Positions 3,864-34,970 of a stretch of DNA of 64,000 nucleotides are shown here, in pieces. The stretch spans positions 2,304,001 through 2,368,000 of the forward strand of contig OZ244720.1 of NCBI GenBank assembly GCA_965219085.1, in the 5' to 3' direction. The stretch's first letter is position 1. Each line of letters opens with the position of its first letter. The stretch is from Dehalococcoidia bacterium (GTDB lineage Bacteria > Chloroflexota > Dehalococcoidia > UBA2979). The notes under the pieces were generated by a model. The model searched no databases, was not told where the DNA came from, and saw only the letters and a list, made by a program, of their open reading frames with translations. A program made the position numbers and the translations under genes.

Positions 3864-6164
3864 CTATGCGCCGCGCATCACCTGCGCCGCCTCCACCATG
3901 TGCTCCAGCGCCGGCACCGTCTCCTCGTAGCGACGCGTCTTGAGGCCGCAGTCCGGGTTCACCCACAGCAGCCCGGGATCGAGCACCGACGCCGCCTCCT
4001 CGAGGCGGCCGACCATCTCGGCCGCCGACGGTACGCGCGGTGAGTGGATGTCGTACACGCCGAGCCCGAGGTCCTTGTCGTAGCCGCGGTCGCGGAAGCC
4101 GTCGAGGCTCTCCGCGTCGGAGCGCGCGTTGAACAGCAGCATCACGTCGGCCTCCATCTCGGAGACCGCGTCCAGCACATCGCCGAGGTGCACGTAGCAC
4201 ATGTGCGACTGGATCTGCGTGTCGTCGCGCACCCCCGCCGTCGCCAGGCGGAAGCACGGCACGGCCCAGCCGAGGTACGCCGGCCAGTCCGCGCGTCGCA
4301 GCGGCACGCCCTCGCGCAGCGCAGGCTCGTCGACCTGGATCACGCGGATGCCGGCTGCCTCGAGGTCCACGACCTCGTCGCGGATCGCGAGGGCGATCTG
4401 GCGGCACGTCTCCGCGCGGGGCTGGTCGTCGCGCACGAACGACCAGTTGAGGATCGTCACCGGCCCGGTGAGCATGCCCTTCACGGGGCGGTCGGTCAGC
4501 GACTGCGCGTACGTCGCCCAGCGCACCGTCATCGGGCCCGGGCGCGCCACGTCGCCGTACACGATCGGCGGCTTCACGTTGCGCGACCCGTACGACTGCA
4601 CCCACCCGAAGCGCGTGAACGCGAAACCGTCGAGTTGCTCGCCGAAGTACTCGACCATGTCGTTGCGCTCCGACTCGCCGTGCACGAGCACGTCGAGGCC
4701 GATGCGCTCCTGGAGCCGGATCACCTGCTCGATCTCGGCCTCGAGGAAGCCCTCGTACTCCTCGGCGGTGATGCGGCCGTTGGCGAAGCGGCGGCGCTCG
4801 CGCCGGATCTCCGGCGTCTGCGGGAACGAGCCGATCGTGGTGGTCGGGAACGGCGGCAGGCCGAGGCGCATGCGCTGCGCAGCACGGCGCTCCTCGACGC
4901 CCCCGTCGCGGTCGTAGTCGTCCGACGTGGTCGATGCGACCCGCTCGCGCACGGCGGGGTTGTGCGTCCGAGGCGAGTTGCGGCGCGACTCGAGCGCCGA
5001 GCGGTTCGCGGCGAGCTCATCGGGTGCGGCGTTCGGGTCGACGAGCGCGCGGCCGAGGACGGCGACCTCCTCGATCTTCTGGTTCGCGAACGCGAGCCAC
5101 GAGCGCAGCTCGGGGTCGAGGTCGGTTTCGAGGCCGAGCTCGATCGGCACGTGCAGCAGCGAGCACGACGCGCCGACGATGACGCGGTCCTCGCCGACGG
5201 CCGCGCCGATGTCGCGCAGCGTCGCGAGCGAGGCGTCGAGGTCGTTGGCCCAGACGTTGCGGCCATCGACGACGCCTGCGACGACGTGCTTGCCGCCCGG
5301 CAGGCCGTGGCGCTGCAGCAGCCCGAGGTTGCGCCGCCCGCGCACGAGGTCGAGGCCGATCGCCGCCACGGGCAGCTCGGTGAGCGTGCGGTACGCCTCG
5401 TCGACATTGCCGAAGTAGGTCTGCACCAGCAGCTTCGTCGAGCCGGCCGCCGTGGCCAGGCGCTCGTAGGCGCGGGTGAGCGCGGCCAGCTCCTCGGGTG
5501 TGCGGTCCTGCACGAGCACCGGCTCGTCGAGCTGCACCCACTGCGCGCCCGCCTCGTGCAGCAGCGCGAGCACCTCGGCGTAGACATCGAGCAGGCCCGG
5601 CAGCAGCGAGAGCAGGTCGAACCCGTCGTCGTGGTTGCCGTCGGCGTCGAAGCCGCGCGCGAGCAGCAGGAACGACACCGGCCCGAGCAGCACGGGCATC
5701 GTCTCGATGCCCGCCGCGCGCGCCTCGAGGTACTCGTCGAGCGGCTTGCGGTTGGCCAGCCGGAAGCGCGTGGCTGGCGACAGCTCGGGCACGAGGTAGT
5801 GGTAGTTGGTGTCGAACCACTTCACCATCTCGAGCGCGGTCACGTCGATGCCAGCGTCCTGCGCGCCGCGCGCCATGGCGAAGTAGGTGTCGAGGCCCCC
5901 GTCGCCGCCGTTGCGGTAGCGCGGCGGCGCCGCGTCGACCATCGCGATCGTGTCGAGCACGTGGTCGTAGTACGAGAAGGCGTTCGAGGGGATGAGGTCG
6001 ATCCCCGCGTCGCGCATGCGCGTCCACGCCTCCAGGCGCAGCGAGCGAGCGGTCGCCTCAAGGTCCTCGCGGCCCACTTCCCCGTCCCAGTAACCCTCGA
6101 CGGCGCGCTTGAGCTCGCGCCGCGCGCCGATGCGCGGATAGCCGGAGAGGGCGGACAGGGCCAT
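3864..6164 (-). CDS. metE: Cobalamin-independent methionine synthase
   Basis: GYPRIG, KWFDTNYHY, TTTIGSFPQT, RNDMVEYFGE, HMCY and NPDCGLKTR motifs. Confidence 0.97.
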   Translation of the reverse strand: MALSALSGYPRIGARRELKRAVEGYWDGEVGREDLEATARSLRLEAWTRMRDAGIDLIPSNAFSYYDHVLDTIAMVDAAPPRYRNGGDGGLDTYFAMARGAQDAGIDVTALEMVKWFDTNYHYLVPELSPATRFRLANRKPLDEYLEARAAGIETMPVLLGPVSFLLLARGFDADGNHDDGFDLLSLLPGLLDVYAEVLALLHEAGAQWVQLDEPVLVQDRTPEELAALTRAYERLATAAGSTKLLVQTYFGNVDEAYRTLTELPVAAIGLDLVRGRRNLGLLQRHGLPGGKHVVAGVVDGRNVWANDLDASLATLRDIGAAVGEDRVIVGASCSLLHVPIELGLETDLDPELRSWLAFANQKIEEVAVLGRALVDPNAAPDELAANRSALESRRNSPRTHNPAVRERVASTTSDDYDRDGGVEERRAAQRMRLGLPPFPTTTIGSFPQTPEIRRERRRFANGRITAEEYEGFLEAEIEQVIRLQERIGLDVLVHGESERNDMVEYFGEQLDGFAFTRFGWVQSYGSRNVKPPIVYGDVARPGPMTVRWATYAQSLTDRPVKGMLTGPVTILNWSFVRDDQPRAETCRQIALAIRDEVVDLEAAGIRVIQVDEPALREGVPLRRADWPAYLGWAVPCFRLATAGVRDDTQIQSHMCYVHLGDVLDAVSEMEADVMLLFNARSDAESLDGFRDRGYDKDLGLGVYDIHSPRVPSAAEMVGRLEEAASVLDPGLLWVNPDCGLKTRRYEETVPALEHMVEAAQVMRGA

Positions 6165-6290
6165 GGGAGGGCTCCTCGGGGCGTGGGGATTCGGGGCTCG
6201 CCGGGTGGGTACGACGATCGTAGCGCGGGCGGTCGTGGCGGGCTACGCGGAAGCGCGCCGCATTGCGAGGCACTCACGCGTTGTGGTGTC

Positions 6291-6296
6291 TATAAT
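6291..6296 (+). promoter_or_regulatory. Consensus -10 box TATAAT just upstream of hicA (probable leaderless transcript)
   Basis: TATAAT ends 6 nt before the ATG at 6303. Confidence 0.5.
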
Positions 6297-6302
6297 GGCG
6301 TC

Positions 6303-6545
6303 ATGCCGGGAACGCCGCTCCCGCAGCTACGTGCACGAGCCGGGAGCCTGACGGCACGCGACCTCGTGCGCGAGTTGCGGGCGCGAGGATGGGTCGAAAT
6401 GGAGCGGAGGCGCGGCAAGGGCAGCCACCGAGTGTTCCGGAAGCCAGGCAGGCGCCGGGTTGTGGTTCCCCGAAGGCCCGCGCGAGGGACGGTGTTCGGC
6501 ATCCTCGGGAGCATCGAGGCGGATGAGGAGGCGGATCATGACTGA
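6303..6545 (+). CDS. hicA: HicA family toxin
   Basis: LRARGW...GKGSHRVFRKP...VVVP motif; overlaps the hicB start. Confidence 0.85.
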   Translation: MPGTPLPQLRARAGSLTARDLVRELRARGWVEMERRRGKGSHRVFRKPGRRRVVVPRRPARGTVFGILGSIEADEEADHD

Positions 6546-7005
6546 AGAGGCGACGATCGAAGCGGGGGTACGGGCAGCGGTCGCTGCTCCGTACACGCGG
6601 CTCTTCACGCGCGAGGAAGACGGCAGGTACTCGACGAGCGTCCTTGAGCTGCCGGGCTGCTTCTCGTCCGGGGACACGCCCGAAGACGCGATGGAGATGC
6701 TGGACGAGGCGATCGAGTTGTGGGTCGAGGCGGAACTCGAAGATGGCCACGACATCCCGCCGCCGTCGCGGGCGGTAGAGTACTCGGGCCGCCTCACACT
6801 GCGCCTGCTCCCCTCGATCCACGAGCGGGCGGCGCTCCTCGCGCAACACGAGCGCGTGAGCCTCAACCGCTACCTCGCCAACGCGATCAGCTACTACGTC
6901 GGGCTTGGCAGCCCGCAGGCTACGCCCGCGACCGCCGCGAGCGGGCAGCCCGCGCTGATGGTGCGGGAGGAGCCAGGGAGGTGGGGTGTTACGAACGAGG
7001 GGTAG
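6538..7005 (+). CDS. hicB: HicB family antitoxin with C-terminal ribbon-helix-helix
   Basis: ELPGCFSSGDTPEDA; YSGRLTLRL..SIH..A...A..E.VSLN. Confidence 0.9.
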   Translation: MTEEATIEAGVRAAVAAPYTRLFTREEDGRYSTSVLELPGCFSSGDTPEDAMEMLDEAIELWVEAELEDGHDIPPPSRAVEYSGRLTLRLLPSIHERAALLAQHERVSLNRYLANAISYYVGLGSPQATPATAASGQPALMVREEPGRWGVTNEG

Positions 7006-7032
7006 CAGGCTCGTCGAGCCGTGCTTCTCTTG

Positions 7033-7860
7033 TCAGGCACACTCGGCGATGAGGTATAGCATGCCTGCGGCGGCGCTGTGGATCGCGAATTTCGCAATCG
7101 ACTCCGAGCCCGAAGCCGCACCATGCGCCGCGCCTTCCGAGCCCCCACGGAGGTGATAGAGCTTCTTGAGTGCCTCCACCACGTTCGGGTCAAGGTCATG
7201 CTTGGTGCGCAGTGTGTCGAGGGCGTGATCGAGTAGGATCTTCGAGTCGTTCAGGAGCTCTCGGCAGACTTCCTCGACGGCGCTCGCCGCAGCGTGAACG
7301 GCCTCCGGATAATCCGCTCCTCTCGCCGACGTAGACTTGGTCAGCGCGGAAACGAACTTCTCTTCAGCGTCGGCGAAGCGAGGATCACGAAGAAGCGCGT
7401 CGCGCGCCTCGTCGACGGCTTGGTTCTCGATATCTGTGCCCGCCTCAACAATGTCGTCGCCAGCGAACCGATAGGCGAAGCGTGACAATGTGAACGCTTC
7501 GTCACACCCGACCTTGAGGATGATGTACCCCACAGGCCACTGCGCGTTGGCAGCCTTGACGAGCAACTCCACGATCTCGAGGAACTCGCCGACGCTGTGT
7601 TGGCTGGTGAGCAGCCTTTGAATCAGATTTCGCCGGTTACTCCAGCTTGCATCCAAGAGTGACGGGTCGAGCGCTAGGGAGCCCCACACCACACGAAAGA
7701 AGTTCTGCGAATGAGAGCCATCGACTTCCCACATCTCGTGGATCACCGCCGCTAGTTGGTTCGCTAGCCCTGCGGGGATGGAATCACGGATGAGGCCAGC
7801 TTCTCCTCTTGCGAGGCGCGCCGACCTGCGCTCGATGAACGTTGTTCCTCCCGGGGTCAT
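7033..7860 (-). CDS. Hypothetical protein, AbiJ-NTD/HEPN-like putative defence protein
   Basis: Lower-GC ORF; C-terminus DYPEAVHAAASAVE...LYHLRG...AAHG resembles Abi/HEPN-type domains. Confidence 0.5.
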   Translation of the reverse strand: MTPGGTTFIERRSARLARGEAGLIRDSIPAGLANQLAAVIHEMWEVDGSHSQNFFRVVWGSLALDPSLLDASWSNRRNLIQRLLTSQHSVGEFLEIVELLVKAANAQWPVGYIILKVGCDEAFTLSRFAYRFAGDDIVEAGTDIENQAVDEARDALLRDPRFADAEEKFVSALTKSTSARGADYPEAVHAAASAVEEVCRELLNDSKILLDHALDTLRTKHDLDPNVVEALKKLYHLRGGSEGAAHGAASGSESIAKFAIHSAAAGMLYLIAECA

Positions 7861-7926: not shown

Positions 7927-11787
<3,861 letters not shown>

Positions 11788-26294: not shown

Positions 26295-27314
26295 CTACTC
26301 CAGCCCACGCTCCGCCATCAGCGCGCACACATCCGCCAGCCGGCACGCGTAGCCGTACTCGTTGTCGTACCACGCCATCGTCTTCACCATCCGGCCGCCG
26401 TCGACGACCATCGTCGCCGGCAGGTCGAAGATCGAGGAGCCGGGGTGGCTCTTGAAGTCCGTCGACACCAGTTCCTCGCGCTCCACGTAGAGCACGCCCT
26501 CCATGGGGCCTGACGCCGCCGACTGGAAGGCCTCGTTGATCTCGCCCACCGAGGCGCGCTGCGCCAGGTCCGTCGCGAGGTCGACGACCGAGACGGTCGG
26601 CGTCGGCACGCGGTAGGCGAGGCCCGTCAGCTTGCCCTCGAGCTCCGGCATGATCTTTGACACCGCGCTCGCCGCGCCCGTCGAGGTCGGGATGATGTTG
26701 AGCCCGGCGGCGCGCGCGCGCCGCAAGTCCTTGTGCTTCGAGTCCATCAGGTTCTGGTCGCGCGTGTAGGAGTGGATCGTGGTCATCAGCCCGCGCTCCA
26801 CGCCGAAGGCGTCGTGCAGCACCTTCACGACGGGCACGACGCAGTTCGTCGTGCACGAGCCGGCGCTGATCACGTGGTGGCTGGCGGGGTCGTACTCGTC
26901 GTGGTTGACGCCGTAGATGACCATCCAGTCCTCGCCGCGGCCGGGGGCCGAGATGAGCACCTTCTTCACGCCGTCGCGGAGGTGCAGCGCCGCGCTGTCG
27001 CGGTCGCGGAACGCCCCGCTCGACTCGACGACCACGTCGACGCCGGCGGACGCCCAGTCGATGGTGGCGGGGTCGGAGCCCTCGAAGACGCGCACCTCGT
27101 GGCCGTCGATCGAGAAGCAGCCGTCGCCGTCGACGACCTCGGCGGGGAAGCGGCCGTAGTCGGAGTCATAACGCAGCAGGTGGGTGTGCATGTCGACGGG
27201 CGAGCGCCCGTTGATCGCGACGATCTCGAAGTCCTCGCGGTTGCGTTCCCACCAGGCGCGCAGGAACTGGCGCCCGGTGCGGCCGAAGCCGTTGATCCCC
27301 ACCCGCATGGCCAT
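26295..27314 (-). CDS. gap: Glyceraldehyde-3-phosphate dehydrogenase (type I)
   Basis: GINGFGR; SCTTNC; NIIPTSTGAA; WYDNEYGY. Confidence 0.96.
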   Translation of the reverse strand: MAMRVGINGFGRTGRQFLRAWWERNREDFEIVAINGRSPVDMHTHLLRYDSDYGRFPAEVVDGDGCFSIDGHEVRVFEGSDPATIDWASAGVDVVVESSGAFRDRDSAALHLRDGVKKVLISAPGRGEDWMVIYGVNHDEYDPASHHVISAGSCTTNCVVPVVKVLHDAFGVERGLMTTIHSYTRDQNLMDSKHKDLRRARAAGLNIIPTSTGAASAVSKIMPELEGKLTGLAYRVPTPTVSVVDLATDLAQRASVGEINEAFQSAASGPMEGVLYVEREELVSTDFKSHPGSSIFDLPATMVVDGGRMVKTMAWYDNEYGYACRLADVCALMAERGLE

Positions 27315-27403
27315 GGCGTCGACATCCTCTCGGTCCGGGGAGGCTGTGATCTGATTCTACCGCGCCAAGGCCTCTCGGCGATGGCGTATCAACGCCCGAT
27401 CGC

Positions 27404-28300
27404 CTACAGGAGCACGCGTTTCGTCGCGTCGCCCGGGCGGCGGCGGAAGTCCGTGAGCAGGTGTCGGCGCCGCCCCGACTCGTCGATGTGCTCCTCGAGC
27501 CGGCAGCGCTGGCCCTCGAGCAGGTGGACGTCGACCTCCCGCACGTGCGCGACGACCTCGTCGCGCAGCTCGCGCGAGGCCGGGAAGTGCCCGGCGGCGT
27601 GCATGGCGATGTGCAGCTGGCGCGTCCCGATGCGCAGCAGCCAGCCGAGCAGCAGCTCGGCCCAGCCGAGGTGGAACGCCTCGTCGCCGAAGATCAGCGG
27701 GTAGCGACGCTCGGACGCCTCGTTCGCCGTAAAGAGCGCCGTCGGCCCGAAGTTGGGGCGGCCGAGGTCGCTGGCGGCGCGGTAGATGGCGCGCAGGTGC
27801 TCGTCGCCGGCGATGGCCTCGCCGCCGAAGTAGTGCCCGAGCCCCACGTCCTCGGCGCGCGCCTGCTCGTGGCGGGCGTAGGCCTGGTGCGCCCACTCCA
27901 GGAACGACTCGATCTCCCCGGGCAGGGCGGACTGCGCGGCGACGTGCTCGATCGCCTGGCGGACGAGCGGGACGGCGCTCTGGTATGCGCCGCGCCGCAC
28001 CAGCGACGCGGCGTCCGAGGTGCATAGGAACGCCCGGCTCCACAGCGAGGCGAGCGCGGCCATCGTCATCGTGCGCGCGCTGGGCGTGTAGCCGCTGGCG
28101 GCGAAGCGCGCCTGCACGTCGAGGCCCGCTTCGAGCAGGCGCAGGTCGTCGCCGAGCACGAAGCCGGTCTGCCGCCACGCGTCCTCGGCGGCGTCGGAGA
28201 GCGCATCGGGCTTGCCGGGCAGCGTCCACGAGTCGGGGACGCGCATGCCGGAGACGCGCTGCGGAGCGCCGAGGGGCGAGAGGTCGCCGTTGAAGGTCAT
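27404..28300 (-). CDS. Hypothetical protein (about 298 aa)
   Basis: Host-like codon usage; ATG at 28300; no recognisable family. Confidence 0.65.
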   Translation of the reverse strand: MTFNGDLSPLGAPQRVSGMRVPDSWTLPGKPDALSDAAEDAWRQTGFVLGDDLRLLEAGLDVQARFAASGYTPSARTMTMAALASLWSRAFLCTSDAASLVRRGAYQSAVPLVRQAIEHVAAQSALPGEIESFLEWAHQAYARHEQARAEDVGLGHYFGGEAIAGDEHLRAIYRAASDLGRPNFGPTALFTANEASERRYPLIFGDEAFHLGWAELLLGWLLRIGTRQLHIAMHAAGHFPASRELRDEVVAHVREVDVHLLEGQRCRLEEHIDESGRRRHLLTDFRRRPGDATKRVLL

Positions 28301-28327
28301 GCCCTCATTCTGGCCGATCGGACAGCT

Positions 28328-28375
28328 GCGGGGCAGGTTCTCGGTGTGCGTGCATGGTGGGTCCGAGGTGTACTC
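28328..28375 (-). repeat. Duplicate of the helicase 3' region (matches 30701-30748)
   Basis: 44/48 nt identical, all four mismatches synonymous; both copies encode EYTSDPPCTHTENLPR. Confidence 0.93.
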
Positions 28376-28474
28376 GCTGATGGCGCAGGCGCCCCCGCCC
28401 ATGCCATGATGTCCTGCGGACGGAGAGCCAGCAGCGAGTGTCGAGTGAACGTCATGGCGCTGCCAAGAGCTATC

Positions 28475-28550
28475 TGGTGCCGGGGGCCGGGCTTGAACCG
28501 GCGACGCGCGGTTTTCAAGACCGCCGCTCTACCCACTGAGCTACCCCGGC
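28475..28550 (-). tRNA. tRNA with anticodon TGA (nominally Ser) on a short-variable-loop Thr/Phe-like body
   Basis: GCCGGGG-TA-GCTC AGTGGGTA GAGC-G-GCGGT CTTGAAA ACCGC-GCGTC-GCCGG TTCAAGC CCGGC-CCCCGGC-A-CCA; 76 nt, all stems paired. Confidence 0.9.
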
Positions 28551-28565
28551 TTCGGTAGGCGGTGC

Positions 28566-28600
28566 GAGGCGGGCTCCTCTTTACACGGCGAGCCCGCCTC
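28566..28600. terminator. 11-bp inverted repeat between the hypothetical gene and the odd tRNA
   Basis: GAGGCGGGCTC...GAGCCCGCCTC; no clear U-tract. Confidence 0.45.
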
Positions 28601-28611
28601 CACCGAATCCG

Positions 28612-29058
28612 CTAGAATGGTAGGTCGTCCACCTCCGGCTTCTTAAATTGGTACAGCGCTGGCTCTTCCTCACCGACACGCTCGATGCTGGCATGGCCTT
28701 GGAGCACCGCGTTGAGCGTCCGCAGCGGCACATTCAGGTGGGCGTCCCGCAGCGTGGTCGCGATTGTGGCGCGTGTGAGTGGCTTTCCAGCTTCGAGGAG
28801 GACTTCCACGATTGCCTTGGCGGGATCCGCTCGTACGAACCGGAATTCGCCGGTGGCGCCGGTCCCGGGTGGCCACCCTGCGATGCGGTGCGGTCCGCCC
28901 CCGAGTCGCTCCCACGCAGCGTCTCTGAGGGCTGCGTACTTGATGGCGGCCACATTGAAATTGATCCGGGCCTGACTCAACTGCGTATTCGCGTCAGCCA
29001 ATTGTTCTTCGGCGTCTGCGATGGATCGGAGAATTGCATCTGTGTAGTCGTCGTTCAC
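28612..29058 (-). CDS. Hypothetical coiled-coil plus winged-HTH protein (accessory, lower GC)
   Basis: N-terminal heptads; AIVEVLLEAGKPLTRATI HTH-like motif; C-terminal DDLPF. Confidence 0.55.
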   Translation of the reverse strand: MNDDYTDAILRSIADAEEQLADANTQLSQARINFNVAAIKYAALRDAAWERLGGGPHRIAGWPPGTGATGEFRFVRADPAKAIVEVLLEAGKPLTRATIATTLRDAHLNVPLRTLNAVLQGHASIERVGEEEPALYQFKKPEVDDLPF

Positions 29059-29288
29059 TCGTATACACCTCTCTGAGAGATCGAGTATATGACGGATGTC
29101 AACCACCGATCTATCTAATATCGCTAGTGGGTTACGAATGATGGAACAGAGTGCTCTTGTGCTGCGCGTACGTCCCCACAGAAGCCGCGCGCCATGTGGG
29201 GCACTGCTGGTAGATCCTGTCCCTCCGGTGCCCCAGTGCATCGGGCCGTGGGAGCGAGCGGTCTAGCCCCGAACGGGGCTGAACTCAG

Positions 29289-30652
29289 GGTCACGTCCCT
29301 GCAAGTGGTGTAACAGTGCACCATCCTGATCATTTGCTAGCTGGCGGTCTGCAGTAGCACCTCCTCGCCTGAGGCGACCTCGGCCACGGCCGCCGGCAGC
29401 GGCTGCAGCATCGTCATGTAGCGCCGCCCCTCCGCCCACTCGTCGTGCTGCTCGGCGAGCACGGCGCCGACCAGCCGCACGACGGCGGCACGGTTGGGGA
29501 AGATGCCGACCACGTTGGTGCGCCGCCGGATCTCCTTGTTGAGGCGTTCCAGCGGGTTGTTCGACCAGACCTGCCGCCAGTGGACCGGGAAGGCCGTAAA
29601 CGCCAGGATCTCCGGCCCGGCGTCGGCGAGCAGCGCCGCGGCCTCGGGGAAGCGCTCGGCGAGCTGCTCCACCACGCGGGCGTGTTGGGCCTGCACCTCG
29701 GCCGCCGAGGACTGCTCGTAGATCGTCCGCACCGTCGTCGCCACCAGCTTCTCGGCGCTCTTCGGCACCCGGGTCAGCAGGTTGCGCATGAAGTGCGTGC
29801 GGCAGCGCTGCCAGGAGGCGCCGGCGAAGACCGTCGCGATCGCCTCCCTGAGGCCCTGGTGCGCGTCCGAGGTGACGAGCTCGACGCCGGACAGGCCGCG
29901 CGCCACGAGCCCGCGCAGGAAGCTCAGCCAGAACGCCCCGTCCTCGGAGGTGCCGACGTCGATGCCCAGCAGCTCGCGCTTGCCGGAGGCGTTGACGGCG
30001 GTGGCGACGACCACGGCCACCTGCACGACGCGGCCCTCCTCGCGCACGAGCTGGGTGAGCGCGTCGAGCCAGAGGTAGCGGTAGGGGCCCGAGTCGAGGG
30101 GCCGCTCGAGGAAGCTCGAGACGACCTCGTCGAGTTCAGCGCAGATGCGCGAGACCTGGCTCTTGGAGATGCCGTCGCAGCCGAGCGAGCGCACGAGGTC
30201 GTCGACGCGACGGGTCGAGACGCCCTCGACGTAGGCCTGCGTGACCACGGAGACCAGGGCGCGCTCCGAGCGCCGCCGCGGCTCGAGCAGCGAGGGGAAG
30301 TAGCTGCCCTCGCGCAGCTTCGGGATGCCCAGTTCGATCGTGCCCACACGCGTGTCCCAGCGCCGCGGCCGGTAGCCGTTGCGCCGGGTCAGGCGCGTCT
30401 CGCTGCGCTCGCCGTGGGCGGCGCCGATCTGCTCGGAGACCTCGGCGTCCATCACCGCCTGGGCGAGCACCGCGACCGCCTCGCGCAGAAAGTCGAGGTC
30501 CGCTCCGTCCGCCTGCTTGCGCAGCAGTTCCAACAAGTCCACGCTCTCCTTGACCACAGTCGTCCTCCTCCACGTGACTCTTCTTCTTGTGAAGGATGGC
30601 GCTGTGGTCTCCTACGTCTACCTCCTGTGACACCACTTCCTGGGACGCTACT
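29289..30652 (-). mobile_element. IS256-family insertion sequence
   Basis: Imperfect terminal IRs (GTCACGTCCCTGCAAGTGGTGTAACA / GTAGCGTCCCAGGAAGTGGTGTCACA); flanking direct repeat GAACTCAG at 29281-29288 and 30653-30660, extendable to 10 bp. Confidence 0.9.
29337..30557 (-). CDS. IS256 family transposase
   Basis: RNGYR; GVSTRRV; LDAL; SDAHQGL; WQRCRTH; NNPLERLNKEIRRR. Confidence 0.96.
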   Translation of the reverse strand: MVKESVDLLELLRKQADGADLDFLREAVAVLAQAVMDAEVSEQIGAAHGERSETRLTRRNGYRPRRWDTRVGTIELGIPKLREGSYFPSLLEPRRRSERALVSVVTQAYVEGVSTRRVDDLVRSLGCDGISKSQVSRICAELDEVVSSFLERPLDSGPYRYLWLDALTQLVREEGRVVQVAVVVATAVNASGKRELLGIDVGTSEDGAFWLSFLRGLVARGLSGVELVTSDAHQGLREAIATVFAGASWQRCRTHFMRNLLTRVPKSAEKLVATTVRTIYEQSSAAEVQAQHARVVEQLAERFPEAAALLADAGPEILAFTAFPVHWRQVWSNNPLERLNKEIRRRTNVVGIFPNRAAVVRLVGAVLAEQHDEWAEGRRYMTMLQPLPAAVAEVASGEEVLLQTAS

Positions 30653-30676
30653 GAACTCAGTGCGTGGGCGGCTGCT

Positions 30677-33532
30677 TCACGCTCTGACGTACGCCGATCG
30701 GCGCGGCAGGTTCTCGGTGTGCGTGCACGGCGGATCCGAGGTGTACTCGGTGCACCCAAGGAACTGGCCGTAGCGCCCGTACCGCGTGACCAGCACGCCG
30801 ACGCCGCACGTCCGGCACACCGTCGGCGGGCGGGCGCACGAGGCGTTGGTGCACCTCGCGCGGCCGTCGGCGGGGATGGCGTAGCCGGCGTTGCAGTTGG
30901 CGCACCTCGGGGCGAGGTGCCTGCACATCGGGTGGTTCGAGCAGCGCAGGTTCCTGCCGCTCTGCGAGGCGACCAACTTGCCGCCGAGACACCGAGGGCA
31001 CTCGGGCGCGTCGTCTCCGGGGAGCTCGCCGAGCTGGCGCAGATCGGCGCCGTCGCGCCGTAGCTCGGTGACGAACGCCGACGGAAGCTGCGGGTCGGTG
31101 ACGAGGTAGGCGCCGCGCCGCGCGCGCGTCATCGCGACGTAGAACAGGCGGCGCTCCTCGGCGTGCGGGAACCCCGTCGCCGCGCCCGAGGGGAGCACGA
31201 GGTCCAGCAGCGGGTCGTCCTCGACCTGTGACGGGAAGCCGCGACGCTCGTTCTTGAGGTCGAGCACCACGGCGTAGTCGGCCTCGCGGCCCTTCGCGCG
31301 GTGCACGGTGCTGAACTCGACGCGGAGAGGCGCGACGCCCGCCGGGGGGCGCGCGCTGTTCCGGTAGCGGCCGAGGACGAGCACGGAGGGCGAGTCGTGG
31401 CGGTCGGCCGCGGCGCGCTCCTTGATGTCCTGCAGCGCGCGCCAGAGGCCGCGGCCGGGATCGCCGTCGGCGACGATGGTGACACCGTCGTCGCGGTTCT
31501 CGCGAGCCGACCGCAGCGGGCGCTGCGTCTGCGCGGGGTTGCGCTGCACGAAGGCCGTCGAGGGCCGGAGGATGCCGTCGGCGAAGCGGAAGGTCTGGCT
31601 GAGCGTGCGCTGCCGCACGTGGCCGAGGTAGTCGCCGCAGTTGCGCACCAGCCCCACGTCGCTCCCGGCGAAGCGGTAGATCGACTGCCAGTCGTCGCCG
31701 ACGAGGAAGTACGCGGTGTCCGGCCCCTTCAGCGCTTCGATCAGTCGCATCCGTCCCGCGGAGATGTCCTGGAACTCGTCGACGAGGATGTGGCGGTACG
31801 ACGCCCGCCACGCACCCTCGCGTATGAGCGCGGCGGCGCGGTTGATGAGGTCGTGGAAGTCGACCGCGTTCTCCTCGGCGAGCATCGCCTCGTAGCGCTC
31901 GCGCACCTGCTCGAAGACGGCGAGGAAGCTCTCGCTGCGCCGCCGGTCCGAGGAGGCGCGGGCGCGCTCGCGCAACTCGGCGGGCGAGGCGCCGCTGGTC
32001 TTCACGTGGTGGAGGAACGTGGTGAGCAGGCGCGCCAGCCACGAGATCAGCCAGCGGCCGAGCCGTGCGATGACGGAGCGCATCGGGATCGGCTCGAACG
32101 CGACGCCCGCCGCCTCGAGCTGCTGCTGCAGCACGTCGCGGAGCACGCCATTGCGATGCTGCCAGCTGTACGTCTCGATGAGTCGCGTTCCGAGTTCCGC
32201 GTGGATGCGGCGCTTCCATTCGACCCCCTCGGTGTAGCGCTTCCACGTCGGGGGCGGCCGGCCGTTCTCGTCGAGCGCGAAGTGCTCGATGTAGATGTCG
32301 TGGGCAGGGAGGTAGAAGTCCGGCCGGTACTGGCTGTACTCCTGGGTCGCCGTCCGCTCCGGGAACTGCTGCTCGTAGCGGAACGCGACGCCGTGCAGGG
32401 TCAGGAAGTTCGCGATCTCCAGCTCCTCGACGCTCTTCACGAGGTCGCCGCTGAGCGTGCGCAACTCCGAGTTGCGCACGTACTCGTAGTACTCGCCGGC
32501 GCTATTGAAGCTGAACGGTGACCGGTACGGCGCGCGGTGATGCGCGACGAAGTCCGTGACGACGCCCGACTGCCGCGGGTCGCCCAGGAGGTCCCGGAGC
32601 GCCTCGTCGACGGCGCGTTGGAAGGCCGCGTCGTCCTGAGCGAGCCGGGAGATGGTCGGGGCCACGCTGGTGTCGGCGATGACGCGGCGGCCGAAGGCGT
32701 GGAACGTGAACACGTTGGTCGCCTTGAGGTCGGCGGGGAGCCGCTGGCGCACCTCTGCCGCGGCGGCGGCGTTGAACGCCAGCACGAGGATCTCGTCGGG
32801 TGGCACGCCCTCGTTGCGCACGAGGTGCGCGACCTTGCCGATGATTACCGCGGTCTTGCCCGTGCCGGCGCCCGCGAGGACGAGCGTGGCGTCCTCGTCG
32901 GTCGCGATGGCGAGCGCCTGCTCGTCGGTGAGCGCGACGCGGAGCGCCGTGCGGGCGGCGGCCTGCACGGCTGGGACTCGCTCCGCCGCGAAGCGCTCGT
33001 TCGCACGCTCGCGCGCGGCCTCGAACGCCCCGGCGGGTTCGAGCGGCGCGAGCCGGCGGAGGGCGTCGGCGGCGTGCGGCGGCAAGTGGTCGCGTGCGAA
33101 CGCCCCGTGGCACTCCCGCACCACCGAGGCGAGCTCCTCGTCGAGCGTGCCGACCGCGGATCGACGCGCGTAGCGGCCGCCGTCGAGGAACCGACGCAGC
33201 GCGGTGTCGACCCGCACCAACTCGGGACCGACGGTCGAGGCGCGGTGGGCGGCCGCCGCGCGCGCGGCTTCGACCACCGCCAGGGCCGACGGCTCATCGA
33301 GGCCCCCGATCGTGTGCCGGGCGCCGTCGGCGGTGCGGATCGTGAGCCTGTGCCAGAACCAGGAGCGGCGCACCTCGATCGCGTCGACAGAGCCGACGGG
33401 GATCGCCGTCGGGGTGCTCGCACCTGCGTTGACGCGCAGGGTCTCGCTGCTGATCGAGATGGCCGAGGGGCCGGGCTGCCAGAGGCGATAGAGCGAGGCA
33501 CTGCGGGCGCTCGCGCGTGGAGTCATTTCCAT
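30677..33532 (-). CDS. UvrD/HelD (helicase IV-like) SF1 helicase with inserted nuclease-like domain and C-terminal zinc ribbons
   Basis: AGAGTGKT; DEFQD; GDDWQSIYRF; STVHRAKGRE; EERRLFYVAMTRA; KS..E..IANFL and YRPDFYL...IEHF; CxxC repeats. Confidence 0.9.
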   Translation of the reverse strand: MEMTPRASARSASLYRLWQPGPSAISISSETLRVNAGASTPTAIPVGSVDAIEVRRSWFWHRLTIRTADGARHTIGGLDEPSALAVVEAARAAAAHRASTVGPELVRVDTALRRFLDGGRYARRSAVGTLDEELASVVRECHGAFARDHLPPHAADALRRLAPLEPAGAFEAARERANERFAAERVPAVQAAARTALRVALTDEQALAIATDEDATLVLAGAGTGKTAVIIGKVAHLVRNEGVPPDEILVLAFNAAAAAEVRQRLPADLKATNVFTFHAFGRRVIADTSVAPTISRLAQDDAAFQRAVDEALRDLLGDPRQSGVVTDFVAHHRAPYRSPFSFNSAGEYYEYVRNSELRTLSGDLVKSVEELEIANFLTLHGVAFRYEQQFPERTATQEYSQYRPDFYLPAHDIYIEHFALDENGRPPPTWKRYTEGVEWKRRIHAELGTRLIETYSWQHRNGVLRDVLQQQLEAAGVAFEPIPMRSVIARLGRWLISWLARLLTTFLHHVKTSGASPAELRERARASSDRRRSESFLAVFEQVRERYEAMLAEENAVDFHDLINRAAALIREGAWRASYRHILVDEFQDISAGRMRLIEALKGPDTAYFLVGDDWQSIYRFAGSDVGLVRNCGDYLGHVRQRTLSQTFRFADGILRPSTAFVQRNPAQTQRPLRSARENRDDGVTIVADGDPGRGLWRALQDIKERAAADRHDSPSVLVLGRYRNSARPPAGVAPLRVEFSTVHRAKGREADYAVVLDLKNERRGFPSQVEDDPLLDLVLPSGAATGFPHAEERRLFYVAMTRARRGAYLVTDPQLPSAFVTELRRDGADLRQLGELPGDDAPECPRCLGGKLVASQSGRNLRCSNHPMCRHLAPRCANCNAGYAIPADGRARCTNASCARPPTVCRTCGVGVLVTRYGRYGQFLGCTEYTSDPPCTHTENLPRRSAYVRA

Positions 33533-33638
33533 GCGCGTGATTATTCCAGAGATCGCGCATGTGATTGAGTGCCGACCGCACGACACACGGCCCCGGGGCG
33601 CGGGGGCCTCGGGCTGCTCGGGAGACGGGAGCGAGGCG

Positions 33639-34970
<1,332 letters not shown>

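What the first reader, a model, noticed from the sequence alone, without database searches (positions are those of the whole stretch)
28328..30748. Segment carrying the odd tRNA and an HTH gene is bracketed by helicase-tail repeats
Seen: 48 bp encoding EYTSDPPCTHTENLPR is repeated 2.37 kb apart with four purely synonymous differences, and GCCGATCG is also shared just beyond it. Without the IS256 the enclosed unit is about 1 kb: a hairpin, a lower-GC coiled-coil/HTH ORF, a second hairpin and the tRNA. Inference: the tRNA is cargo rather than the integration target, the reverse of the usual island geometry, and the ORF and tRNA may form a functional pair.
Basis: partly seen in the sequence, partly recalled or inferred. 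Interest (0 to 1): 0.7.

Follow-up and report, generated by a model that had tools for sequence, protein, structure and literature searches.

The report
Imported odd-tRNA cassette at helicase tail
A small imported DNA cassette, carrying a regulator-like gene and an extra tRNA whose body and anticodon do not match, sits between two copies of a helicase gene's tail, and the same gene-plus-odd-tRNA pair recurs on jumping elements in distant relatives.

Summary
A 52-nt direct repeat (28328-28379 / 30701-30752, 90% identical; four third-position synonymous differences in the 48 coding bases) brackets a class-I tRNA(UGA), a 148-aa winged-helix gene and a later IS256 insertion. A congener (G014) has the empty site, with the helicase stop overlapping the next gene's start. 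Other congeners carry different cargo there. The winged-helix gene was found in 1 of 99 genomes of the order.

The ORF and tRNA form a conserved pair. Of 15 homologue loci, 9 have a tRNA 24-61 nt downstream on the same strand, usually behind a strong hairpin. Most of these tRNAs pair one isotype's body with another's anticodon: Phe-like/UGA here; Leu-like/CCA, Ala-type G3:U70/UAA and Glu-like/UUG elsewhere. Canonical isoacceptors coexist where checked. The proteins of the eight best-matching pairs end in the host SSB's C-terminal tip (DDLPF). In one genus the pair sits inside a DDE transposon with inverted ends and a target duplication.

How the cassette entered the G000 site, and what the tRNA does (miscoding, decoy or other), are inferred, not shown. 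I found no published description.

The parts
26295..27314 (-). gap, type I glyceraldehyde-3-phosphate dehydrogenase; core flank of the variable interval
   Evidence: NCBIfam TIGR01534 405 bits, cutoff 367; collinear in 9 of 9 fetched relatives
27404..28300 (-). 298-aa conserved gene of unknown family (P0002 without the upstream extension); its start and ribosome-binding region lie in the repeated junction
   Evidence: No Pfam, NCBIfam or PADLOC family; 78-90% DNA identity in 9 of 9 fetched relatives
28297..28379 (-). Repeat copy 1: displaced helicase-tail fragment (52-nt core 28328-28379) plus the leader of the next gene (GCCGATCG at 28313-28320). It is in frame with the next gene, with no stop between.
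28380..28474 (-). 95-nt G+C-rich spacer between the tRNA and repeat copy 1
   Evidence: fold not better than shuffles (z -0.69)
28475..28550 (-). Supernumerary class-I tRNA, anticodon UGA, CCA encoded, body closest to tRNA-Phe
   Evidence: ARAGORN; Rfam 69.2 bits; 80-84% identical to Dehalococcoidia tRNA-Phe(GAA); canonical 90-nt tRNA-Ser(UGA) and tRNA-Phe(GAA) lie elsewhere in the genome
28553..28611 (-). Strong hairpin between the ORF stop and the tRNA 5' end; the same element is present in the homologous modules
   Evidence: -38.7 kcal/mol, z -4.46; homologues z -5.67, -4.52, -4.31, -1.18
28612..29058 (-). 148-aa protein: long N-terminal helix, winged helix-turn-helix, acidic C-terminal tip DDLPF identical to the host SSB tip
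   Evidence: AlphaFold2 pLDDT 94.2; Foldseek finds only generic winged-helix hits; family of 290 clusters; SSB tails
29096..29266 (+). 56-aa divergent ORF starting MST; possibly a decayed remnant of the small divergent coiled-coil gene seen in the homologous modules
   Evidence: no Pfam family; position and start as in L029-L033; homology not shown
29289..30652 (-). IS256-family insertion sequence (transposase 29337-30557), a later secondary insertion with a 9-bp target duplication at 29280-29288 / 30653-30661
30677..30752 (-). Repeat copy 2: the functional last 25 codons and stop of the helicase (52-nt core 30701-30752; GCCGATCG 30693-30700)
30677..33535 (-). UvrD-type, helicase IV-like gene with two C-terminal zinc ribbons. 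It is itself variable among congeners. The start is taken at the MEMTPRAS methionine, because the longer ORF overlaps eno.
   Evidence: Pfam UvrD-helicase 2.4e-47, Zn_ribbon_Top1; NCBIfam helicase IV 345.7 bits, below the 543 cutoff; present next to P0002 in 3 of 9 fetched relatives
33639..34964 (-). eno (enolase); the other core flank of the variable interval
   Evidence: TIGR01060 641.5 bits; matched in 8 of 9 fetched relatives

Best explanation
The segment between the two helicase-tail copies is horizontally acquired cargo, about 0.95 kb before a later IS256 insertion. It landed exactly where the 3' end of a helicase IV-like gene overlaps the ribosome-binding site and start codon of the next gene. 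Because both genes need that overlap, it is present twice: copy 2 still ends the helicase and copy 1 still leads the next gene. The most likely route (inferred) is a single crossover between this junction and a cassette that carried a related helicase tail, using host recombination, since the segment encodes no recombinase. The cargo is one member of a conserved module: a dimer-like winged-helix protein with the SSB C-terminal tip, then a strong hairpin, then an extra tRNA. The tRNA is probably made from the same transcript, because only 12-15 nt separate hairpin and tRNA. In this family the tRNA's body and anticodon belong to different amino acids; here the body is Phe-like and the anticodon UGA reads the Ser codon UCA. 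I infer that the protein controls, or works with, a tRNA that misreads or blocks one sense codon. Shown here: the repeat, the empty site, the cargo status, the conserved pairing, the mismatch at sequence level, the shared SSB tip, and transposon carriage in other genomes. Inferred: the crossover mechanism, co-transcription, the tRNA's charging state and its cellular effect.
For: Repeat and frames. Empty site in G014 with an ATGA overlap. The same junction is duplicated around other cargo: a 24-nt perfect repeat around a PaREP1 gene in G008, and about 47 nt including the start codon around a Type ISP-like methylase gene in G016. The helicase keeps the same length in all four helicase-bearing genomes, 8 residues after LP. 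At two of the five differing sites each G000 copy shares its state with functional tails of other species: copy 1 with G014, copy 2 with G008/G018. The four synonymous differences have P=0.0038 under random substitution. Cargo status: family in 1 of 99 genomes of the order, 6 of 400 other class genomes, 1 of 400 other phylum genomes; lower G+C. Pairing: 9 of 15 homologue loci have a tRNA 24-61 nt downstream on the same strand. Tip and tRNA together in 8 loci; neither in 4. Mismatch: G000 tRNA 80-84% identical to tRNA-Phe(GAA); L029 class-II Leu-like with CCA; L030/L032 G3:U70 Ala-type acceptor stem with UAA; L031/L036 Glu-like D arm with UUG; L035 class-II with UGU. Canonical isoacceptors coexist in G000, G049 and G367. 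SSB tails: GDIEPEDIPF and EGDVEPDDLPF, against SDVEPDDVPF and PEVDDLPF in the module proteins. Transposon carriage: 18-nt inverted ends, 6-bp duplication, DDE_Tnp_1 gene, different chromosomal sites, and the tRNA swapped between conserved flanks.
Against: There is no recombinase, transposase (other than the unrelated IS256) or inverted ends in the G000 segment. No circular form was seen, and no contig bridges an empty site in near-identical strains (one search gave no verdict). The ends of the tail remnant differ between genomes (after GGCAGGT, TTCTCG, GGTG, GTGTG, GTGTA, or 35 nt further in G000), which does not fit one precise recombination site. Both G000 copies share YTSDP..TH, which no other species has, so duplication or gene conversion within the lineage is possible. 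Synonymous-only differences are partly expected if changes accumulated in the selected copy. No promoter-like or terminator-like site was found in 28250-29330. PheRS is known (recalled) to read the anticodon, so the G000 tRNA may be poorly charged or uncharged. Exceptions to the pairing: L076 has a tip-like GDLPF end and no tRNA; L075 has no tip but a tRNA. Nothing on expression: no RNA run holds the stretch.
Confidence: 0.6

Rival explanations
1. Scar plus allele replacement. The copy next to the downstream gene is not an attachment site but an old remnant of the helicase tail, kept because it holds that gene's translation start region. Cargo in the eno-to-P0002 interval turns over by homologous recombination in the flanking core genes and by illegitimate deletions and insertions. 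The longer, more similar remnant in G000 comes from gene conversion or a lineage-internal duplication.
For: All five helicase-less relatives examined keep a remnant upstream of the P0002 start: about 35-45 nt (..TENLPRRSDRMRA*) in G007, G003 and G016, and a shorter, more diverged one in G004 and G009, which are only 79% identical to G000. Remnant end points differ between genomes. The proximal part of copy 1 is the '+7 nt' variant shared with G018, G004 and G009, so it is old. Both G000 copies share residues found in no other species. Cargo differs in nearly every genome: Type ISP-like methylase, PaREP1, 358-aa, 315-aa and low-G+C ORFs.
Against: It does not explain why the distal 40 nt of copy 1 carry states seen in other species' functional tails (AGC, CCA as in G014) while copy 2 carries others (ACC, CCG as in G008/G018). 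It does not explain why all four differences are synonymous. It does not explain why three different cargos are each flanked by direct repeats of the junction. It still needs an unexplained first insertion.
Confidence: 0.3
2. Site-specific integration in trans. The repeat is an att site, with the palindrome GCCGATCGGC near its core, used by a recombinase encoded elsewhere. The cassette would then be a non-autonomous element like a CIME or a Xer-dependent (dif-type) module.
For: Direct repeats flank a recombinase-less cassette; the same sequence flanks other cassettes in G008 and G016; GCCGATCGGC is a perfect 10-nt palindrome.
Against: Repeat lengths and end points differ from genome to genome (24, about 47, 52-68 nt). 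No second copy of the repeat core occurs in the window. No recombinase was identified. In other genomes the module moves by a DDE transposon instead.
Confidence: 0.12
3. The tRNA does not miscode. It is a decoy or sponge for an anticodon nuclease or tRNA-modifying enzyme, since its anticodon arm resembles that of the host's tRNA-Ser(UGA). Or it is an uncharged tRNA that stalls ribosomes at one codon. Or it serves a non-translational role such as a primer or protein-bound RNA, with the winged helix binding the RNA rather than DNA.
For: The anticodon arm GCGGUCUUGAAAACCGC is close to that of the canonical tRNA-Ser(UGA), GCGGUCUUGAACACCGU. A Phe-type body with a non-Phe anticodon is expected (recalled) to be a poor PheRS substrate. 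The nearest folds include Z-alpha-type nucleic-acid binders. The neighbourhood holds defence-type cargo in relatives.
Against: Several module tRNAs keep exactly the elements of synthetases that ignore the anticodon (G3:U70 with A73; Leu-type class-II body with A73). A mere decoy would not need these. No nuclease gene is linked to the module in the loci examined.
Confidence: 0.25
4. The tRNA is an ordinary core tRNA and the usual target of an island; the repeat is chance or an assembly artefact.
For: None found. Contigs of the holder runs confirm the assembly.
Against: A canonical tRNA-Ser(UGA) exists elsewhere. No relative has the tRNA here. The repeat core has 0 chance matches in 100 shuffles.
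Confidence: 0.02

Closest known systems
tRNA(ProX)/ProRSx pairs of Streptomyces and Kitasatospora (sections 17, 18 and 23 of PMC11415595 read; PMC10404621 seen in a search listing only)
   Same: An extra bacterial tRNA combines the identity of one amino acid with the anticodon of another and is genetically linked to a dedicated protein gene. Canonical tRNAs coexist. Distribution is sporadic.
   Different: The partner here is a 148-aa winged-helix protein with an SSB-type tip, not a synthetase paralogue. The tRNA bodies come from several isotypes (Phe-, Leu-, Ala-, Glu-, Gln-like) rather than one. U33 is kept in 7 of the 8 best-matching module tRNAs. The pair rides on transposons or cassettes. 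Charging is untested.
Recombinase-less cassettes flanked by att-type repeats (CIMEs of Streptococcus; Xer-dependent dif modules of Acinetobacter plasmids; recalled, not read here)
   Same: Small cargo of one or two genes bounded by direct repeats of the target site, no integrase inside, and different cassettes at the same site in relatives.
   Different: No defined recombinase site or fixed crossover point. The repeat is the coding 3' end of a helicase overlapping the next gene's start. End points vary.
Genomic islands integrated into the 3' end of a tRNA or protein gene, which rebuild that end
   Same: The target gene's 3' end is duplicated, the gene stays intact, and the displaced copy lies at the far end of the insert.
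   Different: The tRNA is inside the insert as cargo. There is no integrase. The insert is only about 1 kb.
IS elements with passenger genes (DDE_Tnp_1, IS4/IS5-type)
   Same: In L030, L031, L032 and L036 the module lies with a DDE transposase between 18-nt inverted ends, with a 6-bp duplication in L030 and L031.
   Different: The G000 copy has neither that transposase nor those ends. Its neighbouring IS256 is unrelated and secondary.
tRNA genes of phages and mobile elements that offset host anticodon nucleases (recalled; the DARNA preprint 10.64898/2026.02.22.705581, abstract and section 5 read, shows SSB-linked tRNA cleavage as a defence)
   Same: A supernumerary tRNA with the anticodon of a host tRNA on mobile DNA; a link to SSB biology through the protein's tip.
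   Different: The body predicts another amino acid or none, so it cannot simply replace the host tRNA. No phage or plasmid copy was found.

Membership tests
tRNA (Rfam RF00005) | Cloverleaf scoring above the gathering threshold | tested here: met
   69.2 bits against 29, full model 1-71; 7-bp acceptor stem, 7-nt anticodon loop with U33, CCA encoded
tRNA-Ser (isoacceptor implied by anticodon UGA) | Class-II structure with a long variable arm, required by SerRS (recalled) | tested here: not met
   76 nt with a 5-nt variable loop; the genome's canonical tRNA-Ser(UGA) is 90 nt
tRNA-Phe | GAA anticodon (major PheRS determinant, recalled) and a Phe-type body with A73 | tested here: inconclusive
   Body 80-84% identical to Dehalococcoidia tRNA-Phe, same acceptor stem as the G028 tRNA-Phe, A73; but the anticodon is UGA, not GAA
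Hybrid-identity (mistranslating) tRNAs | Identity elements of one amino acid combined with the anticodon of another | tested here: met
   At sequence level: G3:U70 + A73 with UAA (L030, L032); Leu-type class-II body + A73 with CCA (L029); Phe-like body with UGA (G000)
Hybrid-identity (mistranslating) tRNAs | Charged with the non-cognate amino acid and used by the ribosome | not testable with these tools
   Needs aminoacylation assays and proteomics
tRNA(ProX)/ProRSx system | Linked synthetase paralogue; Pro-type body; A33 | tested here: not met
   The linked gene is a winged-helix protein; bodies are not Pro-type; U33 present
IS256 family | Mutator-type transposase, terminal inverted repeats, 8-9 bp target duplication | tested here: met
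   PF00872 at 4.7e-132; 23-nt arms 87% complementary; TGAACTCAG on both sides; six more copies
Integrase-bearing genomic island | Tyrosine or serine recombinase gene between the att repeats | tested here: not met
   Between the repeats lie only the tRNA, the 148-aa ORF, a 56-aa ORF and IS256
DNA helicase IV (NCBIfam NF008276 equivalog) | Score above the curated cutoff | tested here: not met
   345.7 bits against 543; it is a UvrD/REP-type helicase (PF00580 2.4e-47) with Zn_ribbon_Top1. GajB and RTasHel models of PADLOC match only through the shared helicase core.
HARE-HTH (PF05066) | Pfam match | tested here: not met
   0 families for the G000 protein; weak matches in 4 of 60 family members, best E 7e-4
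SSB | OB fold plus acidic C-terminal tip | tested here: not met
   The fold is helix + winged helix, with no OB fold. Only the tip is shared: DDLPF, against the host SSB's ..EPDDLPF.

The most novel reading that the evidence does not exclude
A mobile two-gene system not described before. A winged-helix protein mimics the SSB C-terminal tip and governs an identity-switched tRNA. When released, that tRNA deliberately recodes one sense codon: UCA to Phe or a stall here; UGG to Leu, UUA to Ala, CAA to Glu in relatives. On this reading the module acts as a toxin-like effector for addiction or abortive infection, or as a switch for adaptive mistranslation. The tRNA itself is an exchangeable cassette within a fixed frame.
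Probability: 0.3. Interest if true: 0.85.

Novelty: new variant of a known kind. Interest (0 to 1): 0.72.

Why it matters
Natural tRNAs that break the code's pairing of identity and anticodon are rare in bacteria, and the role of the few known ones is open. This is a family of such tRNAs with several different body/anticodon combinations. Each is tied to the same small protein and the same hairpin, and the pairs are carried on mobile DNA. That gives a testable handle on why cells or mobile elements keep miscoding, or codon-blocking, tRNAs. The SSB-tip mimicry suggests a link to replication or recombination proteins. The G000 locus also shows how cargo can enter an overlapping gene pair without breaking either gene, by duplicating the overlap. 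The eno-gap interval of this genus is a natural series of such events.

Tried and rejected
Core tRNA or integration target: rejected.

Phage or plasmid origin: three scans of viral contigs were tried. tblastn of the G000 protein against plasmids and phages, and of P0011 against plasmids, gave no match.

Metagenome scan with the close-relative alignment A3 found nothing.

Transposon ends of the L030 type in the G000 segment: none within 2 mismatches of an 11-nt core.

Promoter and terminator scan of 28250-29330: 0 and 0.

Fold search: only generic winged-helix matches, none at E<=0.001. The protein atlas gave only 'hypothetical protein' clusters.

Sequencing runs: no RNA holder listed. X5 and X7 (other studies) cover the P0002 gene up to 28318/28295 and the helicase tail from 30693, but no contig joins across, so there is no verdict on an empty site in close strains. 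Parts without cover are not used as evidence.

Canonical tRNA-Trp in G337 was not found with the G000 tRNA-Trp query; that genome has 150 contigs and is 95% complete.

Literature: five searches listed no paper on a winged-helix gene paired with anomalous tRNAs. Supplementary files were not consulted. [quoted passage not shown]

Full report
**1. What is at the locus**

On the minus strand the order is as follows:
- eno, 33639-34964
- a UvrD-type, helicase IV-like gene, 30677 to about 33535
- an IS256-family element, 29289-30652
- a 148-aa ORF, 28612-29058
- a hairpin
- a tRNA, 28475-28550
- a 95-nt spacer
- a 298-aa gene of no known family, 27404-28300
- gap, 26295-27314

The helicase ends in two zinc ribbons; Pfam Zn_ribbon_Top1 covers aa 952-990 of the 997-aa ORF.

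**2. The repeat**

The repeat finder reports 28328-28379 against 30701-30752: 52 nt, 90% identical. It is by far the best repeat in 27300-31300. A 23-nt exact core occurs twice in the window and in none of 100 shuffles.

Both copies read EYTSDPPCTHTENLPR. The four differences in those 48 nt are all third-position and synonymous. A fifth, just upstream, changes T to S.

Aligned with the junctions of relatives, the likeness continues past GCCGATCGG to the helicase stop and the next gene's ATG, with a 7-nt indel. About 76-83 nt are therefore duplicated.

Copy 1 is in frame with the downstream gene and has no stop.

The IS is secondary. It has 23-nt inverted ends, a TGAACTCAG duplication, and six other copies at 94-100% identity. 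Without it the insert is about 0.95 kb, with lower G+C (0.51-0.66 against 0.71-0.76).

**3. Relatives**

Among 40 relatives no match beyond tRNA-sized pieces was listed over the insert. Eight of those pieces were fetched: seven are tRNA-Phe(GAA) and one is tRNA-Met.

Nine loci were fetched and compared:
- G014 has helicase and downstream gene directly joined. Its helicase ends ..ENLPRRSDRMRA and the TGA overlaps the ATG. This is the empty site.
- G008 and G018 have the helicase plus a PaREP1-family ORF on the other strand. In G008 this ORF is flanked by a perfect 24-nt repeat of the junction.
- G004 has the PaREP1 ORF but no helicase.
- G016 has a 1110-aa Type ISP-like methylase gene flanked by a repeat of about 47 nt that includes the start codon.
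- G007, G003 and G009 have other ORFs.
- G006 was not resolved.

All five helicase-less genomes keep a remnant of the helicase tail in front of the downstream gene. Where the remnant ends differs from genome to genome.

The eno-to-P0002 interval is thus a cargo hotspot. The tail/leader overlap is the piece that always survives.

**4. How the insert got there**

The segment has no recombinase and none of the transposon ends found elsewhere.

Three observations favour a crossover with a cassette that carried a related, once-functional helicase tail:
- The differences are synonymous only (P=0.0038 under random substitution).
- At two differing sites each copy shares its state with functional tails of other species.
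- Three different cargos are each flanked by direct repeats of the junction.

Three observations count against it:
- Both G000 copies share YTSDP..TH, which is unique to G000.
- The proximal part of copy 1 is an old '+7 nt' variant also seen in G018, G004 and G009.
- Remnant end points vary.

A scar-plus-gene-conversion history therefore remains a serious rival. Contigs of public runs confirm the assembly but give no bridging empty-site contig.

**5. The ORF and the tRNA are a pair**

The ORF's family is rare. It was found in 1 of 99 genomes of the order (G000 only), in 6 of 400 other class genomes, and in 1 of 400 other phylum genomes. In a library of 1.84 billion representatives it forms 290 clusters at E<=0.001.

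Adding the loci from genome and metagenome scans gives fifteen distinct loci.

Nine of them have a tRNA 24-61 nt downstream on the same strand: G000, L029, L030, L031, L032, L033 (=L038), L035, L036 and L075.

A strong hairpin precedes the tRNA in G000, L030, L033 and L035 (z -4.3 to -5.7); it is weaker in L029.

Eight of these nine proteins end in [DE][DE][LIV]PF. Four tip-less homologues (L025, L034, L039, L069) have no tRNA. L037 has too little downstream sequence to tell. L076 ends in GDLPF and has a transposase gene instead of a tRNA. L075 is tip-less but has a 92-nt class-II tRNA(UAG) inside an extended stem.

**6. The tRNAs are anomalous**

| Locus | Body | Anticodon |
|---|---|---|
| G000 | class-I, 80-84% identical to Dehalococcoidia tRNA-Phe(GAA) | UGA |
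| L029 | class-II, 78% identical to tRNA-Leu(CAA), A73 | CCA |
| L030, L032 | acceptor stem of tRNA-Ala with G3:U70 and A73 | UAA |
| L031, L036 | Glu-type D arm | UUG |
| L033 | Gln-like, U1-A72 | CCA |
| L035 | class-II | UGU |

The G000 genome also has a canonical 90-nt tRNA-Ser(UGA) and a tRNA-Phe(GAA).

Canonical isoacceptors coexist in the hosts checked: Trp in G049 and class-II Leu(UAA) in G367. The module tRNA of G400 reads UUG, and its canonical tRNA-Gln was not looked for.

That AlaRS and LeuRS ignore the anticodon, while PheRS reads it, is recalled knowledge. It makes miscoding likely for the Ala- and Leu-bodied members and uncertain for G000.

**7. The protein**

AlphaFold2 on a 60-sequence alignment gives pLDDT 94.2: a helix from residue 4 to 52, a winged helix from 79 to 138, and a flexible tail.

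Foldseek finds only generic winged-helix matches: a Z-alpha-like viral protein, Fur DNA-binding domains and forkhead. Pfam gives weak HARE-HTH matches in 4 of 60 members.

The tail copies the host SSB tip:

| Genome | SSB ends | Module protein ends |
|---|---|---|
| L032 genome | GDIEPEDIPF | SDVEPDDVPF |
| G000 | EGDVEPDDLPF | PEVDDLPF |

Of the 149 listed family representatives examined (P0008-P0156), 59 end in the strict tip motif.

**8. Mobility elsewhere**

L030 and L032 share about 2.03 kb (76% identical) between unrelated flanks: prfA/prmC on one side, rpsF-ssb-rpsR on the other.

The element is bounded by 18-nt inverted ends (GAGCTTGTTGCGAAACTC type) in L030, L031 and L032, and the left end is also seen in L036. 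It has a 6-bp duplication in L030 and L031 and encodes a DDE_Tnp_1 transposase.

L031 is inverted relative to L030. Between conserved flanks its tRNA is a different one.

No phage or plasmid copy was found.

**9. Comparison and verdict**

The nearest described case I could read is the tRNA(ProX)/ProRSx pairing (PMC11415595, sections 17, 18 and 23). The partner gene, the variety of tRNA bodies and the vehicle all differ here. Five literature searches found no description of this module.

The mechanism of entry and the action of the tRNA remain inferences.

Noticed in passing
window 27404-33670 and relatives' loci L013-L021: The eno-to-gap interval is a cargo hotspot in this genus. Depending on the genome it holds a helicase IV-like gene, a PaREP1 ORF, a Type ISP-like methylase, a 358-aa ORF, a 315-aa proline-rich ORF with hydrophobic ends (looks secreted or membrane-bound by eye), or a low-G+C ORF. 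A helicase-tail remnant is always kept before the downstream gene.
   Followed up: partly
L030 4535-4608 vs L031 ~4544-4617 (alignment A6): Within the same transposon frame (same ORF end, hairpin and downstream sequence) two congeners carry unrelated tRNAs: Ala-type/UAA against Glu-like/UUG. The tRNA therefore behaves as an exchangeable cassette.
   Followed up: partly
L075 1994-2107: A divergent tip-less homologue is followed by a 92-nt class-II tRNA(UAG) embedded in a ~19-bp (by eye) extended stem (TCTGGGGCGTGGCGGGGGG...CCCCCCGCCACGCCCCAGA).
   Followed up: no
G000:C1:724791-725626 and 2621588-2622433 (outside the window): Four extra SSB paralogues lie in two tandem pairs. All end in ADDQPF rather than the DDLPF of the main SSB at C1:1510270-1510692.
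   Followed up: no
window 11217-11313: ARAGORN calls a 97-nt 'tRNA-???' with a four-base anticodon (gtgg). Several other over-long calls (93-101 nt) occur in the genome. These may be false calls or intron-bearing genes.
   Followed up: no
window 28300-28402: Repeat copy 1 is in frame with the downstream gene from an ATG at 28402, with no stop. The gene could therefore carry a 34-residue N-terminal extension containing half a zinc ribbon. Before the insertion, helicase and downstream gene may have been one reading frame in this lineage.
   Followed up: no
L015 (G018) 6255-7217: In G018 the helicase frame that ends in ..ENLPRPSASAGG is open for only 320 codons, so the gene may be broken there.
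   Followed up: no
L030 6804-6845: Next to the right transposon end lies a solo copy of the left end. Together they form an 18-bp/6-nt-loop palindrome, so the element seems to have inserted beside an older end.
   Followed up: no
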